64,000 bases of DNA from NCBI RefSeq assembly GCF_965641715.1, contig NZ_OZ282453.1. The stretch is one strand, 5' to 3'. Origin of the DNA: Escherichia coli (GTDB taxonomy: Bacteria > Pseudomonadota > Gammaproteobacteria > Enterobacterales > Enterobacteriaceae). The position numbers are program-made. This document shows, piece after piece, positions 12,001-21,000 of this stretch. Numbering within the stretch: the stretch's first letter is position 1; each line of letters opens with the position of its first letter.

Positions 12001-15000
12001 TGATGGCCCGCAATTGGCAAAAACCACGGGCGGTAACGGTTGGATAAAAATGTTAAGGCAGCGCGAGTTGAAGCTGTACCAATGGATGGCGTCTTATTTA
12101 CCCGTATTGTTGATTCGTCTTGGCATTGATGAACAAACCGCGTTTGCGCGTAAACCTGACCACCAACTGGCAGCGTTACAGGAAAAAATCGCCGTTACGC
12201 CGCAATTGACATTCAATGGCGCAAAGATCCTTGAACTGGATGGTCGGCAACCAGCCGATGAAATTCTGCAAGCGTCACTACGCGCAATTCACGCCGCGCT
12301 TTCCTGATCACCAAAATGGATAGGGGATGATTTAACGAATGGATGCACTACAAACACAAACTGTTATTAGTACAACCGCGCCGCAGCCCAACTACATACC
12401 GGGGCTGATTGCGGTGGTCGGGTGTGATGGCACCGGTAAATCCACACTGACCACCGACCTGGTGAAATCGCTGCAACAACACTGGCAAACCGAGCGCCGC
12501 TATTTGGGGCTGCTCTCGGGCGAAGACGGCGACAAAATAAAACGATTGCCGTTGGTTGGCGTCTGGCTGGAACGGCGACTGGCGGCCAAATCCTCGAAAA
12601 CCCAAAGCATGAAAACCAAATCTCCAGCGCTATGGGCGGCGGTGATTATGTACTGCTTCTCGCTGCGAAGAATGGCGAATCTGCGCAAGGTTCAGCGACT
12701 GGCGCAAAGTGGCGTTCTGGTGGTCAGCGATCGCTTCCCGCAGGCTGAAATTTCGGGCTTTTATTATGACGGACCGGGGATCGGCGTCGAACGTGCGACC
12801 GGGAAAATAAGCATGTTTCTGGCGCAGCGCGAACGGCGTTTATACCAACAAATGGCGCAATATCGCCCGGAATTAATTATTCGCCTGGGCATTGATATTG
12901 AGACTGCCATCTCCCGCAAGCCTGACCATGACTATGCCGAGCTGCAGGACAAAATCAGTGTTATGTCGACGATTGGCTATAACGGCACAAAAATTCTTGA
13001 GATTGATTCCAGAGCGCCCTACAGCGAAGTGCTGGAACAGGCACAGAAGGCGGTTTCTCTGGTTGCCATCGTTTCTGACCGCCGAAGTTTAACTTAAGGC
13101 TGGCGGGATACTTTTTACTATCAACGATAAGGTCAGGCTGAATTGGCGGGTTTTAACATCAAACATTGGTTTGCAGATGGCGCGTTTCGCACCATTATTC
13201 GCAATAGCGCCTGGTTAGGCTCCAGTAATGTCGTGAGCGCCTTGCTGGGTCTGTTGGCGCTCTCGTGTGCCGGTAAAGGGATGACGCCCGCCATGTTTGG
13301 CGTACTGGTGATTGTGCAATCGTACGCCAAGTCGATCAGCGATTTTATTAAGTTTCAGACATGGCAGCTGGTGGTTCAGTACGGAACACCAGCATTAACC
13401 AACAATAATCCGCAGCAATTTCGCAATGTCGTCTCATTTTCCTTCTCGCTGGATATCGTCAGCGGCGCGGTGGCGATTGTCGGCGGCATTGCCTTACTGC
13501 CATTCCTTTCCCATTCATTAGGTCTGGATGACCAAAGCTTTTGGCTGGCGGCGCTGTATTGCACGCTCATTCCTTCAATGGCTTCCTCCACGCCGACCGG
13601 CATTCTGCGTGCGGTAGATCGCTTTGATTTGATTGCTGTACAGCAGGCGACGAAACCTTTTCTGCGCGCAGCGGGGAGCGTCGCAGCCTGGTATTTTGAC
13701 TTTGGTTTTGCGGGTTTTGTTATTGCCTGGTACGTGTCGAATCTGGTTGGCGGCACCATGTACTGGTGGTTTGCCGCGCGCGAATTACGCCGCAGAAATA
13801 TCCATAACGCCTTCAAATTGAATCTGTTTGAGTCTGCCCGACACATTAAAGGCGCGTGGAGTTTTGTCTGGTCAACCAACATTGCCCACTCCATCTGGTC
13901 GGCGCGTAACTCGTGCAGCACAGTGTTGGTGGGGATCGTGTTAGGACCCGCTGCCGCCGGGTTATTTAAAATCGCCATGACATTCTTCGACGCCGCCGGA
14001 ACGCCAGCGGGTTTGCTGGGTAAAAGTTTTTACCCAGAGGTGATGCGTTTAGATCCGCGCACCACCAGACCGTGGTTGTTAGGTGTGAAGTCCGGTTTAC
14101 TGGCGGGCGGAATCGGTATTCTGGTGGCGCTCGCGGTGTTGATCGTCGGCAAGCCGCTCATTTCGCTGGTGTTTGGCGTTAAGTATCTCGAAGCGTATGA
14201 CCTGATTCAGGTGATGCTGGGCGCAATTGTGATTTCGATGCTGGGTTTCCCGCAGGAGTCATTGCTATTGATGGCGGGAAAACAGCGCGCTTTTCTCGTG
14301 GCGCAAACCATCGCCTCAATCGGCTACATCGTATTGCTGTTCATGTTCTGTCATCTGTTTGGCGTGCTGGGAGCAGCGTTTGCTTACTTCGGTGGGCAAT
14401 GTCTGGATGTGGTGCTTTCGCTAATTCCGACCTTAAAGGCATTTTTTCAGCGCCATTCCTTGCTTTATAACGCAGCCGGAGAGAAATCCTGATGATGAGA
14501 AAATATTTCCCGCTTGAGGCGAGCGAGCATCTATTTGTTGCGATTGAGGAAGATGATGTTGTTGATGCCCAGGTCAGTTTGCCGCCGACTATCGCACTAA
14601 GTTGTACCACCGAAATCATCCATGATAATTACGCGTTATGCCTGCAATTCTGGCTCAATGGCGTTGATCGTCAGGAATTACTTCGTTTAATTCGCAAACA
14701 AGCCAAAGGCGATGAGCTGACGACAGACGAGCGTAAACAGTTTAAATACATGCGAGCGCGCTACAAGCATCTACGTTTTGCACAACGGCTGTATTTAAAA
14801 AAGCATCAGGCCAGATTTTTATTCGGCAAAACGACCGTTTTTCTGGGACGTTTTCAGGACGGATTTCGTAACGGTAAGAAAAATATTGTGTCGTATTACG
14901 GCAACCTGTTACGAATTTATTTAAGCTCTCCGGTCTGGTCGTTGGTGAACTATTCATTACGCCATAGCCAGTTAGAAAGCGTAAGCGGTTTTATTGCCTA

Positions 15001-18000: not shown

Positions 18001-21000
18001 GTTTACCGATAGCGTTTGTGCTGGTGGCGTTGAGCCTGGTGTATTGGTATGACAGACAATATTAAACCCGCCGTGGCGCAACACCACGGCGGGCTCACAT
18101 TACTGCTTCAGAGTAGCAAATGCCTGAATGATGGCATCGATTTGCTCACGACTGTGGGCAGCGTTTACGCTACAGCGCAGCAGCGTGATGCCTGCAGGCG
18201 CGGCAGGTGGCAGGATAAGATTCACATAAACGCCCAGCGAAATAAGCTCGCGCCAGATGCGTAAACCGTCCTCTTTCGAACCGATTATTACCGGTACTAC
18301 CGGACTAATATGTGAACTTAACTCATAACCCAGTTTTTGCAGACCGTCATACAGATGGTTGGCGTTATCCATCAGCTTTTGCCGCAGCTCTGGTTGTGTG
18401 GCAATGGTTCTTAACGACGAGCGCACGGTCGCAATGCAGGACGGAGAAGGAGAGGCGGTAAAAATATACGGGCGGCTGCCGTAGCGCAGCACTTCCATCG
18501 CTTCCGAACCGACAGCAAAACCGCCAATCGAGGCCAGACTTTTACTGAAGGTACCAACGATAATATCCACATCATCTTCAACGCCAACGGCTTCAGCCAG
18601 TCCGCGCCCCGTTGCGCCTAACACGCCAAACGAATGCGCTTCATCGACAATCAAATAACCACCGAGACGACGTTTGATATCAACAATTTCCGCCAGCGGC
18701 GCAACGTCACCGAGCATGCTGTAGATGCCCTCAACGATGATAATCGCCTCTTTCGCCCGTTCACCGAGGCGAACCATGCGCCGTTCCAGATCTTTAGCAT
18801 CGTTATGGCGGAAACGAATAATTTCCGCGCCACCGAGAGAACAGGCGTCATAAATACTGGCGTGGCTGTCGGCATCCAGTAATACCACGGCGTTATGGTC
18901 GGCAAGTGCGCTGATGACGCCTAAATTAGCGGTATAACCGGTTGAAAAAACGATAGCGGTAGGGCGATTGAAAAACTCGGCAATCTCTTTCTCTAACGCC
19001 AGGTGCGGCGCATAACTGCCGTTTGCCATACGAGAACCGGTGGTGCCGGTGCCTTGGGCCGCTAACGCTGCCTGACCTTCGCTGATGGCATCATGATTAA
19101 AGGTTAAACCGAGATAATTATTGGTCCCGGCCAGAATCACTTTTTTATTGCCGATCCGGCCTTCGGTGGCGGAATACACTTCATCAATACAGGTGCCAAA
19201 CGGTGTTAACCCGTTGTCACTAAATTGCAGACGCTCGCCAGCAAGGCGCGCATATTTATCGTATAGCCCCATTATTTATTCTCCAGCCATGGAAGTAGAG
19301 TTTCCATTAATTGCGCAGGGGTTTTGACATCCAGCAGAATATTAATAGGAATGGAAATATCGAATCTGTCTTCCAGCATCATTAAGAGATCCATCACTTT
19401 GATCGACTCCAGGCCAAGATCGTTGACGAGATCGCTGTCGGGCTTAATTTCCACACCGTTTTCGACCAAATCCTGTAAACAGGAAAGGATGTAATCCATT
19501 ACTATTTCACGATTTACCATAGAAACGTTAACACACCTTTAAACAAGACAATCAAAATAGCCCGTTGCGTAATGCGTGTTCCAGGCTAATCCCGGGAAAC
19601 CAATTAATATCTTCAGAAATACGGTTATTACTTGCCGACCAGTCGGCGTGGGTTAATTCACGAATTTTCGAGCGGGTCAGCATAGGTTCTTTACCTGCCA
19701 GGCGACTCAACGCAGTACTGATATCCGCAAGGCAGGTGAGTACCGGCAGAGGAATGCCAACCATCCGCACAGAACCACAACGGGCTTCGGCGGCAAGCTG
19801 TCGTACGCGTTGCCAGTCATAGCCGCCAGCGATGCCATCGCATAATTCATAGGTTTGCGTCTGTACAGTTTCGGCGCTTAACCACTGACCCACTGCTTGC
19901 GCAAAATCGGTGACGTGCAGGAAAGAGAGCTGTGTATCTGGTGCACCAAGTCGTGGCAGCAGGCCGCGCAGCATCCAGTCAAACAGCGGTTTTAACTCTT
20001 TATCGCCGGGACCATACACGGCTGTCGGGCGAAAAACGCCCAGCGTAATTTCGTCAGCCATTGCCGTCAGCCGTTGTTCGGCGACGTGTTTGGAATTTGC
20101 GTACCAGGAGAGTTCGGGATGGCGCGCCGCCAGCGAAGAGATAAACAGAAAACGTTGGCAAAAGCCGCTCTCTTTTGCCGCTTGCATCAGGTGCAGGCTG
20201 CCGTCAACGTTACAGCGAGTAAAGACATCCTCTTTGTGTCCACGCACTTGCCCGGCGCAATGGACCACAGCACCGGCACCAGCAACCAGCTCGCTAAGTG
20301 AATGTGTATCTTCCAGCGAACCGCGCACCCAGGTGAGATTGTCATTGACGTGAGCGCGGGCAGTACGCGTCAATGCGCGAACGTGAAAGCCGCGGGCGAG
20401 CAGGTTATCGATAATATATTTACCGATAAACCCGGTAGCGCCCGTCACCGCGACAGTTTGATTCATGCCAGGGATTCCTGCACATGAAGACTGGCAGCAT
20501 AAGCCTTCTGATAACGTTTTTTCGCTTCCGCACGGGCAGGCTTGCCGGAGGACGTTCGGGGAATACTGTGGGGCGGCAACAGATCGATAGCCGCTGTTAC
20601 GCCAAATTCGCTTTGGATCCGTGCTGCCAGCGCGTGGATAAGCTGCCCGCGACGTTCTTCATCGCTGATCCGACACTGGATCTGCAAAATGATTTTTTCC
20701 TGGGCGGTAACAAAAGCAATCGCATCGCCAGAATGAATTTCCGGTTCCTGTTCCGCAATATATTCAATATCCTGCGGCCAGATATTACGGCCACGAATAA
20801 TAATCAGATCTTTAATGCGTCCGGTGACATACAGATAACCGTCCAGCAGATAACCGAGGTCCCCGGTGTCTAACCAGCCCGTCGCGGCAATCTCGTCTTG
20901 TGAAACCTGGTCGCCAAAGTAACCGCTCATCAGGCTAGGGCCGGAGATGCAAATATGGCCTACCACACGTTCCGCGACAGGTATACCTGCTTCATTGCGG

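What the first reader, a model, noticed from the sequence alone, without database searches (positions are those of the whole stretch)
13143..18065. Dedicated export module: YghQ flippase, orphan protein, YtfJ-like protein and LptF/LptG paralogs in one coupled operon
Five plus-strand genes abut or overlap (yghQ stop/start TGATG; 8-bp gap; ATGA overlap between the two permeases). The last two have the LptF/LptG six-TM architecture with a central periplasmic domain, yet no LptB-like ABC ATPase is encoded nearby. The operon converges on the lipid biosynthesis operon across a gap of only about 34 bp (18066-18099). Together with a MOP flippase and a periplasmic YtfJ-like protein, this suggests a second Lpt-like route moving a non-LPS lipid to the outer membrane.
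Basis: partly seen in the sequence, partly recalled or inferred. Interest (0 to 1): 0.7.

Follow-up and report, generated by a model that had tools for sequence, protein, structure and literature searches.

The report
E. coli sphingolipid-locus export genes (LptF2/LptG2)
These five genes are real and sit in the sphingolipid locus that most E. coli carry and K-12 lost; its second LptF/LptG pair most likely exports a sphingolipid using the housekeeping LptB ATPase, as already shown in Caulobacter, and the "orphan" gene encodes a CHAD-like, possibly phosphate-binding protein tied to three neighbouring kinases.

Summary
Five same-strand genes (13143-18065) abut or overlap and converge on spt-acpR-cerR-aasR across a 34-bp gap that holds a 16-bp hairpin. 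No ABC ATPase is encoded anywhere in the 64-kb window.

The last two genes are full-length LptF and LptG paralogues, 26-29% identical to the canonical pair. The LptB-facing elements are kept. Several LPS phosphate and core contacts are lost or charge-reversed.

The core interpretation is already published for Caulobacter: a 2024 proposal, and a 2026 preprint showing that LptF2/LptG2 bind housekeeping LptB. That preprint draws the E. coli UTI89 locus. So the core is supported but not new, and it is untested in E. coli.

New here:
- The "orphan" belongs to a conserved family with a CHAD-like fold.
- Across 78 proteobacterial loci it travels with YghQ and with the dTMP-kinase-like paralogues YghT/S/R.
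- LptF2/LptG2 and the YtfJ paralogue join this core only in Enterobacterales, so the "module" is composite and the operon probably starts at yghS.
- YtfJ2 has a cysteine-free thioredoxin fold, not an Lpt-bridge fold.

All locus genes are under purifying selection. The full stretch is in 4091 of 5426 complete E. coli genomes.

The parts
10728..11420 (-). yghT: dTMP-kinase-superfamily P-loop paralogue, divergent from yghS
   Evidence: Weak dTMP kinase hits below cut-off. Walker A, DR[YF]PQ and RKPDH motifs are shared with YghS and YghR. It is present next to the CHAD-like gene in most of the 78 loci.
11594..12307 (+). yghS: second kinase paralogue and probable first gene of the plus-strand operon
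   Evidence: A 31-bp gap separates it from yghR. A promoter-like site lies at 11516-11544, but such sites are not enriched over shuffles.
12339..13097 (+). yghR: third kinase paralogue
   Evidence: A 45-bp gap separates it from yghQ.
13143..14492 (+). yghQ: Wzx-like MOP-family membrane protein and candidate sphingolipid flippase
   Evidence: Pfam PF01943 at 9e-9 and PF13440 at 2e-7. NCBIfam MOP flippase hit at 2.7e-8, below cut-off. Multiple hydrophobic segments. It shares its InterPro family with Caulobacter CC_1166 (PMC11324152 S1 text). It lies directly upstream of the CHAD-like gene in 63 of 78 loci.
14492..15316 (+).
15325..15888 (+). ytfJ2: periplasmic, cysteine-free thioredoxin-fold protein, a paralogue of YtfJ
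15919..16989 (+). lptF2: LptF paralogue
   Evidence: TIGR04407 at 318 bits. The only PDB hits below 1e-20 are LptF chains; 6mjp_G (LptG) appears at 6.8e-06. 29% identical to K-12 LptF. E85, R290 and R293 are kept.
16986..18065 (+). lptG2: LptG paralogue, overlapping lptF2 by ATGA
   Evidence: TIGR04408 at 309 bits. The significant PDB hits are LptG chains; two LptF chains appear only at about 8e-4. 28% identical to K-12 LptG over 350 residues. E85 is kept; K34, K40, K41 and R133 equivalents are lost or reversed.
18063..18097 (.). Hairpin between the convergent operons, probably a bidirectional terminator
   Evidence: 16-bp stem with 10 G-C pairs. It is by far the longest stem among the terminator-like sites in 10600-18300.
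18100..22151 (-). spt-acpR-cerR-aasR: ceramide-precursor operon, the source of the presumed cargo
   Evidence: SPT NF047599 at 597 bits against a cut-off of 500. PGAP names. The E. coli BL21 enzymes were characterised biochemically (PMC9386255).
22548..23690 (+). yghO: the N-acyltransferase (bCerS / 'aca') of the pathway
   Evidence: Assigned as such in PMC9386255. Co-located in 34 of 44 Enterobacterales loci.

Best explanation
The stretch is the transport and head-group half of the E. coli sphingolipid locus (yghT to yghO), which most E. coli carry and K-12 lost to an IS5-associated deletion. Shown for close relatives: Spt, AcpR, AasR, CerR and YghO make (dihydro)ceramide at the inner membrane. 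Inferred: the three dTMP-kinase-like paralogues YghT/S/R, together with the cytoplasmic CHAD-like protein, add a phosphate-containing anionic head group. Inferred: the Wzx-like YghQ flips the lipid, or an intermediate, to the periplasmic leaflet. Inferred from homology and residue conservation, and shown only in Caulobacter: LptF2 and LptG2 form a heterodimeric permease that docks two copies of housekeeping LptB. It does so through its conserved coupling helices and cytoplasmic loop 2, and uses ATP to pull the sphingolipid out of the inner membrane. No LptC, LptA or LptDE copy is in the locus, so onward transport presumably uses the housekeeping Lpt bridge. YtfJ2 is a periplasmic, redox-dead thioredoxin-fold accessory protein of unknown role. 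The five genes are therefore a composite: an old kinase-flippase-CHAD unit, to which Enterobacterales added ytfJ2 and lptF2-lptG2.
For: Anatomy and junctions. LptF/LptG family membership is full length and above curated cut-offs; the strong PDB hits are LptF or LptG chains. Identity to the canonical proteins is 26-29% overall. It peaks at the coupling helix (LptF2 76-95, 60%; LptG2 69-88, 55%) and at cytoplasmic loop 2 (LptF2 284-303, 60%). The coupling-helix Glu and loop-2 Arg292/295 equivalents are invariant in 40 LptF2 sequences. The role of loop 2 is described in bioRxiv 10.1101/2024.05.20.594984 and PMC6744409. Of the LPS contacts listed in PMC6744409, the hydrophobic acyl contacts are mostly kept. 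LptG K34 becomes N/D, K40 becomes D/E, K41 becomes D, R133 becomes L/Q, and LptF K322 becomes N. R263 and Q248 are also lost. Four basic residues remain. Canonical lptFG is in 5425 of 5426 genomes; the paralogue stretch is in 4091. There is no ABC ATPase in the window. In 44 Enterobacterales loci, LptG2 is present in 42 and LptF2 in 40. They stay within the sphingolipid locus in four gene orders. dN/dS is 0.03-0.14 for all 12 genes. Literature: the Caulobacter LptF2/G2 genes could be deleted only in spt or cpgB mutants. The two proteins co-purify with each other and with LptB, and the E. coli UTI89 locus is drawn in that preprint's Fig. 2B. CC_1166, from the same InterPro family as YghQ, was proposed as the flippase. 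CHAD-like fold and kinase linkage.
Against: There are no E. coli data. I found no report that E. coli makes a sphingolipid in vivo, or of what its head group is. Orthology of E. coli LptF2/G2 and YghQ with the Caulobacter proteins was not tested, so the paralogues could have arisen independently. Xanthomonadales loci carry spt with yghQ and CHAD but have no LptF2/G2 within 10 kb, so the pair is not universally needed. In Sphingomonadales and Acetobacteraceae the kinase-yghQ-CHAD unit lies away from spt, so its substrate need not be a sphingolipid. The YghQ family match is weak. The CHAD assignment rests on a predicted fold plus marginal sequence hits. A profile comparison with the YgiF CHAD domain was negative.
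Confidence: 0.65

Rival explanations
1. LptF2/LptG2 are a spare or condition-specific LPS exporter, for example for a modified LPS, as the PGAP names 'LPS export ABC transporter permease LptF/LptG' imply.
For: Both proteins exceed NCBIfam equivalog cut-offs and are named this way in RefSeq genomes. The hydrophobic cavity residues and some basic residues are kept.
Against: Residues that bind the lipid A phosphates and inner core are lost or charge-reversed throughout the family, including the K34 position, where K34E is lethal in canonical LptG (PMC6744409). The pair is accessory, present in about 75% of genomes, while canonical lptFG is universal. It remains inside the sphingolipid locus through rearrangements. 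The Caulobacter homologues are tied genetically to sphingolipid, not LPS.
Confidence: 0.08
2. yghT/S/R, yghQ and the CHAD-like gene form a self-contained system unrelated to sphingolipids. It could make and export a phosphate-rich or polyprenyl-linked polymer, or be a PPK3-like polyphosphate system, and merely sit beside spt in gamma-proteobacteria. Only lptF2-lptG2 would then serve the sphingolipid.
For: In 19 Sphingomonadales and 5 Acetobacteraceae loci the unit occurs with no spt, acpR, cerR, aasR or yghO within 10 kb. A metagenomic locus has the kinases and CHAD without yghQ. CHAD domains bind polyphosphate (bioRxiv 10.1101/567040). Archaeal PPK3 is two dTMP-kinase-like subunits in an operon with a CHAD protein (PMC12995831). 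Relatives are fused to APH/choline-kinase domains.
Against: Nearly all named taxa holding the family are either reported sphingolipid producers (my knowledge for Sphingomonadales and Acetobacteraceae) or carry spt in the same locus. Sphingolipid genes are reported to be scattered in Sphingomonadales genomes (PMC11324152). In Xanthomonadales, spt-yghQ-CHAD are contiguous on one strand. The kinase profile is not closer to the PPK3-type structure than to ordinary dTMP kinases. No PPX, PPK1 or PPK2 is in the locus.
Confidence: 0.2
3. The locus is a silent or decaying accessory island in E. coli with no present function.
For: K-12 lost it without obvious cost. Some genomes hold partial versions (H18-H20). 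I found no published E. coli phenotype.
Against: It is full length in 4091 of 5426 complete genomes at 95-99% identity, with CDSs and no pseudogenes in the 17 full-length records sampled. dN/dS is 0.03-0.14 for every gene against E. whittamii, and below 0.12 against Pseudocitrobacter where measurable. The E. coli SPT, AcpR and AasR are enzymatically active (PMC9386255).
Confidence: 0.05

Closest known systems
Caulobacter crescentus LptF2/LptG2(/LptC2) sphingolipid transporter (Uchendu, Isom and Klein, bioRxiv 10.64898/2026.04.12.717747; proposed earlier in PMC11324152)
   Same: It is a second LptF/LptG pair encoded in the sphingolipid locus, in addition to the canonical pair. It has no LptB of its own. 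The LptB-docking elements are retained here, and binding to LptB was shown in Caulobacter. The preprint's Fig. 2B already draws the E. coli UTI89 locus.
   Different: The E. coli locus has no LptC2. The head-group genes differ: three dTMP-kinase-like paralogues plus a CHAD-like protein, instead of the published CpgA/B/C-type genes. There is an extra YtfJ paralogue. Orthology was not tested here, and no experiment has been done in E. coli.
Canonical LptB2FGC LPS extractor of E. coli and relatives (PDB 6mhu, 6mit, 6s8h; PMC6744409)
   Same: Same family with full-length alignment. The coupling-helix Glu, loop-2 arginines and most acyl-chain contacts are kept.
   Different: Only 26-29% identical. 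The equivalents of LptG K34, K40, K41, R133 and D37, and of LptF K322, R263 and Q248, are lost or charge-reversed. The pair is accessory rather than universal, and it lies in a sphingolipid locus.
Caulobacter CC_1166/CCNA_01224 and Wzx-type MOP flippases
   Same: Same family as YghQ: Pfam PF01943 here, and InterPro IPR002797, described as a polysaccharide/oligosaccharide flippase family, for CC_1166. Both are encoded in a sphingolipid locus.
   Different: The YghQ match is weak (9e-9) and below NCBIfam cut-offs. YghQ is almost always followed by the CHAD-like gene and flanked by the kinases, none of which appear in the published Caulobacter gene list. Function is untested in either organism.
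CHAD domains (Ricinus 6qv5, Streptomyces PptA 6rn5, Chlorobium 3e0s, E. coli YgiF C-terminal domain)
   Different: The E. coli protein itself has no significant Pfam CHAD match. The hhalign comparison with YgiF was negative. The context is a membrane-lipid locus with a flippase, not polyphosphate metabolism.
Archaeal PPK3 operon (two dTMP-kinase-like subunits plus a CHAD protein plus PPX; PMC12995831)
   Same: Several dTMP-kinase-superfamily paralogues are encoded beside a CHAD-type protein.
   Different: The YghT/S/R profile matches ordinary dTMP kinases (3e-6) better than the PPK3-type structure (0.027). There is no PPX. All three paralogues keep the catalytic motifs. The unit is linked to a flippase and to sphingolipid genes.
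YtfJ / HI0045 family (E. coli b4216)
   Same: 55% identity, and above the TIGR01626 cut-off. It has a signal peptide.
   Different: It is a second copy, locus-specific and found only in Enterobacterales. The function of the family is unknown.

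Membership tests
LptF/LptG permease family (PF03739; TIGR04407 / TIGR04408) | Full-length match to the family model above the curated cut-off | tested here: met
   318.4 bits against 230 for LptF2, and 308.6 against 240 for LptG2, each aligned end to end. The strongest PDB sequence hits are LptF and LptG chains respectively.
LptF/LptG permease family (PF03739; TIGR04407 / TIGR04408) | Three plus three TM helices around a central periplasmic domain | tested here: inconclusive
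   A crude hydropathy scan finds TM segments on both sides of a hydrophilic stretch of about 150 residues, but does not resolve exactly six. Ungapped full-length alignment to solved LptF/LptG implies the same architecture.
LptF/LptG permease family (PF03739; TIGR04407 / TIGR04408) | Coupling-helix glutamate (LptF E84, LptG E88) and loop-2 arginines that engage LptB and the nucleotide | tested here: met
   LptF2 E85 (40/40), LptG2 E85 (20/21), LptF2 R290 and R293 (40/40). These segments are the most conserved windows between the paralogues and the canonical proteins. The role of E84/E88 comes from my own knowledge; loop 2 is described in the papers read.
Canonical LPS exporter (functional equivalog of LptF/LptG) | Basic residues that bind the lipid A 1'- and 4'-phosphates and the inner core (PMC6744409) | tested here: not met
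   K34 becomes N/D, K40 becomes D/E, K41 becomes D, R133 becomes L/Q, D37 becomes N/S. LptF K322 becomes N, R263 is variable, Q248 becomes A/S. LptF R33, LptF K317 (as R), LptG K62 (as R) and LptG R136 (as K) are kept.
Sphingolipid-locus LptF2/LptG2 (Caulobacter type) | Encoded within or next to the spt-acpR-cerR-aasR-cerS locus, as a second copy besides canonical lptFG | tested here: met
   The pair is adjacent and convergent to spt in the window. It lies within the locus in 40-42 of 44 Enterobacterales loci. Canonical lptFG is in 5425 of 5426 E. coli genomes.
Sphingolipid-locus LptF2/LptG2 (Caulobacter type) | No dedicated LptB; uses housekeeping LptB | tested here: inconclusive
   Absence of any ABC ATPase in the 64-kb window was tested and met. 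No ABC_tran family was listed in three related loci. Physical use of LptB is not testable with these tools.
Sphingolipid-locus LptF2/LptG2 (Caulobacter type) | Common descent with CCNA_01214 / CCNA_01213 (same clade in an LptF/LptG tree) | not tested
Sphingolipid-locus LptF2/LptG2 (Caulobacter type) | Deletion tolerated only when anionic sphingolipid synthesis is off | not testable with these tools
   This is a genetic experiment.
MOP / Wzx-type flippase (PF01943) | Match to the family model; polytopic membrane protein | tested here: met
   PF01943 at 9.1e-9 and PF13440 at 2.2e-7. Six or more hydrophobic segments. NCBIfam matches are far below cut-off, so no subfamily can be assigned.
CHAD domain (PF05235) | Significant match to the Pfam model | tested here: inconclusive
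   The window protein has no match. Among 70 family members, 1 matches at E<=1e-3 and 15 at E<=0.1, and no other family recurs. Among 10 fused relatives, 2 match at <=1e-3 and 7 at <=0.1. One distant relative has a precomputed faint CHAD hit. The hhalign comparison with YgiF was negative.
CHAD domain (PF05235) | All-helical CHAD fold | tested here: met
CHAD domain (PF05235) | Binds polyphosphate through a conserved basic surface | not testable with these tools
   The invariant residues are R88, D123, H193, R196 and D238; K92, R95, H105, K197 and H237 are nearly invariant. This is compatible with such a surface but is not a binding test.
PPK3 polyphosphate kinase (PMC12995831) | dTMP-kinase-like paralogues in an operon with a CHAD protein | tested here: met
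   Kinase paralogues lie next to the CHAD-like gene in 71 of 78 loci and in L006.
PPK3 polyphosphate kinase (PMC12995831) | Sequence closer to PPK3 than to ordinary dTMP kinases | tested here: not met
   The profile of 11 YghT/S/R-family sequences hits ordinary dTMP kinases at 3e-6 to 4e-5. It hits the PPK3-type STK_15430 (2plr/5h70) only at 0.027, over the P-loop alone.
YtfJ_HI0045 family (TIGR01626, PF09695) | Match above the curated cut-off | tested here: met
   213.5 bits against 151.1. 55% identity to K-12 YtfJ.
LptA/LptC-type periplasmic bridge protein | Beta-jellyroll fold able to extend the Lpt bridge | tested here: not met

The most novel reading that the evidence does not exclude
The E. 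coli-type locus may make a sphingolipid whose head group is built by phosphorylation alone. Three dTMP-kinase-superfamily paralogues and a CHAD-like protein, an arrangement that echoes the archaeal PPK3 polyphosphate kinase operon, would add one or several phosphates to ceramide. YghQ would flip the product, and LptB2-LptF2G2 would send this lipid A-like anionic lipid to the outer membrane. About three quarters of E. coli strains would then carry an unrecognised outer-membrane lipid that K-12 cannot make.
Probability: 0.15. Interest if true: 0.85.

Novelty: new member of a known kind. Interest (0 to 1): 0.45.

Why it matters
How bacterial sphingolipids cross the envelope was unknown until the 2026 Caulobacter preprint. 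E. coli would be the most tractable host for the same question. It has a natural null (K-12), and about 75% of sequenced strains, including BL21 and uropathogens, carry the intact locus.

The residue-level comparison gives a testable account of how an LPS extractor was re-tuned for a smaller anionic lipid while still sharing LptB. This bears on Lpt-targeting antibiotics and on polymyxin targets.

The link between the CHAD-like protein, the kinases and YghQ points to head-group chemistry different from Caulobacter's ceramide phosphoglycerate. It also assigns a context to four E. coli y-genes (yghQ, yghR, yghS, yghT). RefSeq currently labels the paralogues as plain lptF/lptG and labels yghS/yghT as dTMP kinase, which is misleading.

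Tried and rejected
- **Sequence searches for the 'orphan'.** Pfam, NCBIfam, and PDB searches with both a single sequence and a profile gave nothing significant. The hhalign comparison of the family profile with E. coli YgiF gave probability 0.2. NCBIfam on eight fused relatives gave nothing.
- **Genome scan.** A 70-sequence alignment was too diverse for the scan, so a 13-sequence alignment was used instead.
- **PPK3 membership of YghT/S/R.** Not supported by sequence. I keep it only as an analogy.
- **YtfJ2 as an LptA/LptC substitute.** Rejected on fold.
- **Promoter and terminator scan.** Counts do not differ from shuffles. Only the 18063-18097 hairpin stands out, so the operon start at yghS rests on spacing and synteny alone.
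- **Distant relatives of the CHAD-like protein.** L007 and L008 lie in unrelated contexts, so the family is not exclusive to this locus.
- **Literature.** Searches on yghQ, yghR/S/T and YtfJ found no functional study. No paper links CHAD domains to sphingolipids.
- **Primary source for the LptG lysine cluster.** Two identifiers were not held. PMC6744409 supplied the contacts.
- **Orthology with Caulobacter.** I could not obtain Caulobacter LptF2/G2 or CC_1166 sequences, so orthology is untested.

Full report
**What is there.** The window is an E. coli chromosome segment: hyb, gss, pitB, yghT/S/R, then the finding, then glc. From 13143 to 18065 five plus-strand ORFs follow one another:
- yghQ, 449 aa
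- a 274-aa ORF whose ATG overlaps the yghQ stop (TGATG)
- a 187-aa ORF after an 8-bp gap
- a 356-aa ORF after a 30-bp gap
- a 359-aa ORF that starts at 16986 inside an ATGA overlap

The operon meets the minus-strand spt operon across 34 bp. That gap holds a 16-bp hairpin at 18063-18097. A six-frame scan found no ABC-ATPase signature in any real ORF of the 64-kb window. Two points need adding. yghS and yghR lie just upstream on the same strand, with gaps of 31 and 45 bp, so the operon probably has seven genes. The promoter scan neither supports nor contradicts this.

**Distribution.** The 4.9-kb stretch matches 4633 of 5426 complete E. coli genomes, and it is full length in 4091. In K-12 an IS5 element replaces everything from the 3' end of yghQ to the 5' end of yghO. 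Canonical lptF-lptG is in 5425 of 5426 genomes. The pair in the window is therefore an accessory second copy. RefSeq nevertheless names it lptF/lptG. All twelve locus genes show dN/dS of 0.03-0.14 against Escherichia whittamii. They are maintained, not decaying.

**The two permeases.**
- Both match the LptF and LptG models end to end, above the curated cut-offs. Their strong PDB hits are LptF and LptG chains respectively.
- They are old paralogues: 29% identical to K-12 LptF over 268 residues, and 28% identical to LptG over 350.
- In alignments with 40 LptF2 and 21 LptG2 orthologues, identity to the canonical proteins is 26-28% overall. It reaches 55-60% in the coupling helix and in cytoplasmic loop 2.
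- The coupling-helix glutamates and the loop-2 arginines (R292/R295 equivalents) are essentially invariant. These elements face LptB and the nucleotide.
- The cryo-EM study PMC6744409 lists the LPS contacts. Most acyl-chain contacts stay hydrophobic in the paralogues.
- Head-group contacts are largely changed. LptG K34 becomes N/D, and K34E is lethal in canonical LptG. K40 becomes D/E, K41 becomes D, R133 becomes L/Q and D37 becomes N/S. In LptF, K322 becomes N, and R263 and Q248 are lost.
- Four basic residues remain: LptF R33, LptF K317 (as R), LptG K62 (as R) and LptG R136 (as K).

I infer a transporter that still docks LptB and still holds acyl chains, with a cavity re-tuned for a smaller, probably still anionic head group.

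**The cargo.** The convergent operon encodes a serine palmitoyltransferase (597 bits against a cut-off of 500), an acyl carrier protein, an epimerase-family reductase and an acyl-AMP ligase. yghO lies beyond them. The E. coli BL21 versions of Spt, AcpR and AasR were shown biochemically to make 3-oxo-sphinganine. The reductase and YghO were assigned to dihydroceramide synthesis (PMC9386255).

**What is already known.** PMC11324152 (2024) described the Caulobacter locus CC_1168-CC_1152. It has second copies of LptC, LptF and LptG, and a flippase candidate, CC_1166, of InterPro family IPR002797. The paper proposed that these move phosphosphingolipids to the outer membrane.

The preprint 10.64898/2026.04.12.717747 (April 2026) went further:
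- lptF2, lptG2 and lptC2 could be deleted only in spt or cpgB mutants.
- LptF2 and LptG2 co-purify with each other, and each co-purifies with the single LptB.
- lptF2/G2 occur in many alpha- and gamma-proteobacterial sphingolipid loci, and the E. coli UTI89 locus is drawn in its Fig. 2B.
- LptC2 is confined to Caulobacter.

It remains untested in E. coli. I could not test whether the E. coli and Caulobacter paralogues share one origin.

**The 'orphan'.**
- It has no Pfam, NCBIfam or PDB sequence match. It is still a conserved family, with 343 hits in a word-indexed search and 274 representatives at 50% identity.
- An AlphaFold2 model (pLDDT 87.7, pTM 0.86) is all-helical.
- CHAD is the only Pfam family that recurs among relatives: 15 of 70 at E<=0.1, with a best value of 2.5e-5, and 7 of 10 fused relatives.
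- Some relatives are fused to an APH/choline-kinase-type phosphotransferase domain.
- The protein has no signal peptide or membrane segment.
- A profile comparison with YgiF was negative.

I therefore call it CHAD-like in fold. Its family membership at sequence level is unproven.

**Who travels with whom.** A scan of 100,044 species' genomes with the CHAD-like profile returned 78 loci. They come from Enterobacterales, Xanthomonadales, Sphingomonadales, Acetobacteraceae and a few others. I ran tblastn with the thirteen E. coli locus proteins against them.

| Group | Loci | Kinase paralogue nearby | yghQ directly upstream of CHAD-like | spt operon within 10 kb | LptF2/G2 | YtfJ2 |
|---|---|---|---|---|---|---|
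| Enterobacterales | 44 | 39 | 41 | 39 | 40 / 42 | 44 |
| Xanthomonadales | 6 | 6 | 5 | 5 | 0 | 0 |
| Sphingomonadales | 19 | 17 | 16 | 0 | 0 | 0 |
| Acetobacteraceae | 5 | 5 | 0 (yghQ-like gene in the locus in 5) | 0 | 0 | 0 |
| Other | 4 | 4 | 1 | 0 | 0 | 0 |

- Enterobacterales carry the whole set in four different gene orders. The yghQ/CHAD pair and the lptF2/lptG2 pair are always kept together.
- In Xanthomonadales the order is yghT, yghS, yghR, aasR, cerR, acpR, spt, yghQ, CHAD.
- In Sphingomonadales the unit is just kinase, kinase, yghQ, CHAD.
- A metagenomic locus has yghT, CHAD, yghS and yghR with no yghQ.

The co-inherited core is therefore kinases plus YghQ plus the CHAD-like protein. 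lptF2-lptG2 and ytfJ2 are additions seen only in Enterobacterales.

**The kinases.** YghT, YghS and YghR share Walker A, DR[YF]PQ and RKPDH motifs. They match dTMP kinases only weakly. The Caulobacter ceramide kinase CpgB is a different, DAG-kinase-like enzyme (PMC10331486). The Pfam families listed for three Enterobacterales loci include none of the Caulobacter head-group enzyme types. The head group is thus likely different.

The combination of dTMP-kinase-like paralogues with a CHAD protein recalls the archaeal PPK3 polyphosphate kinase operon (PMC12995831). However, the YghT/S/R profile is not closer to the PPK3-type structure than to ordinary dTMP kinases. This is an analogy, not membership.

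**Verdict.** The new elements are the CHAD-like identity of the 'orphan', its tight linkage to YghQ and YghT/S/R across Proteobacteria, the composite origin of the operon, and the residue-level evidence for a changed substrate with a retained LptB interface.

Noticed in passing
window 13143-23690; K-12 locus L088 147-2409: In K-12 MG1655 an IS5 element (insH9) replaces everything from the 3' end of yghQ to the 5' end of yghO. K-12 therefore lacks the CHAD-like gene, ytfJ2, lptF2, lptG2, spt, acpR, cerR and aasR, but keeps yghR, yghS and yghT.
   Followed up: yes
window 10728-13097 and 15919-18065; L001: RefSeq/PGAP names the paralogues plain 'LPS export ABC transporter permease LptF/LptG' and names yghS/yghT 'dTMP kinase'. 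The first name conflicts with the lost LPS contacts. The second rests on matches far below the curated cut-off.
   Followed up: yes
L047 10001-11760; L052 9152-10816: Luteibacter genomes carry two tandem copies of the CHAD-like gene after yghQ.
   Followed up: no
L059 4912-7025 and 14714-19267; L006 1-8201; L047 13112-16804: Outside Enterobacterales, the kinase-yghQ-CHAD unit repeatedly sits beside MdtABC-type RND efflux genes. In Novosphingobium it also sits beside a PmrAB/QseBC-like two-component system. This hints at envelope-stress control.
   Followed up: partly
L038 (record titled Martelella alba BGMRC 2031): A contig assigned to an alphaproteobacterium carries an Enterobacterales-type locus, in Serratia-like gene order, at 60-78% protein identity. 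It is probably a contaminant or mis-binned contig, or else recent transfer.
   Followed up: no
L005 17823-18182: The Sodalis locus has a DgkA-type lipid kinase gene (DAGK_prokar) next to yghO. It is absent from the E. coli locus.
   Followed up: no
L003 13856-16919: In Serratia marcescens, a phospholipase-like gene and two ankyrin-repeat genes follow lptG2 directly.
   Followed up: no
window 20463-22211: The longest ORF for aasR starts at a TTG and gives 582 aa. PGAP's call in a near-identical strain gives 562 aa, equivalent to window 20463-22151. The true start is unresolved.
   Followed up: no
proteins P0236 and P0239 (about 980 aa): In unidentified organisms, relatives of the CHAD-like protein are fused to an N-terminal APH/choline-kinase-type phosphotransferase domain. 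This is a second, independent link between the domain and kinases.
   Followed up: partly
window 33603-49736: By ORF sizes and map position, the window also holds a 1526-aa ORF followed by a run of plus-strand ORFs. From my knowledge of the E. coli map these are yghJ/sslE and the gsp type II secretion genes. This was not checked with tools.
   Followed up: no
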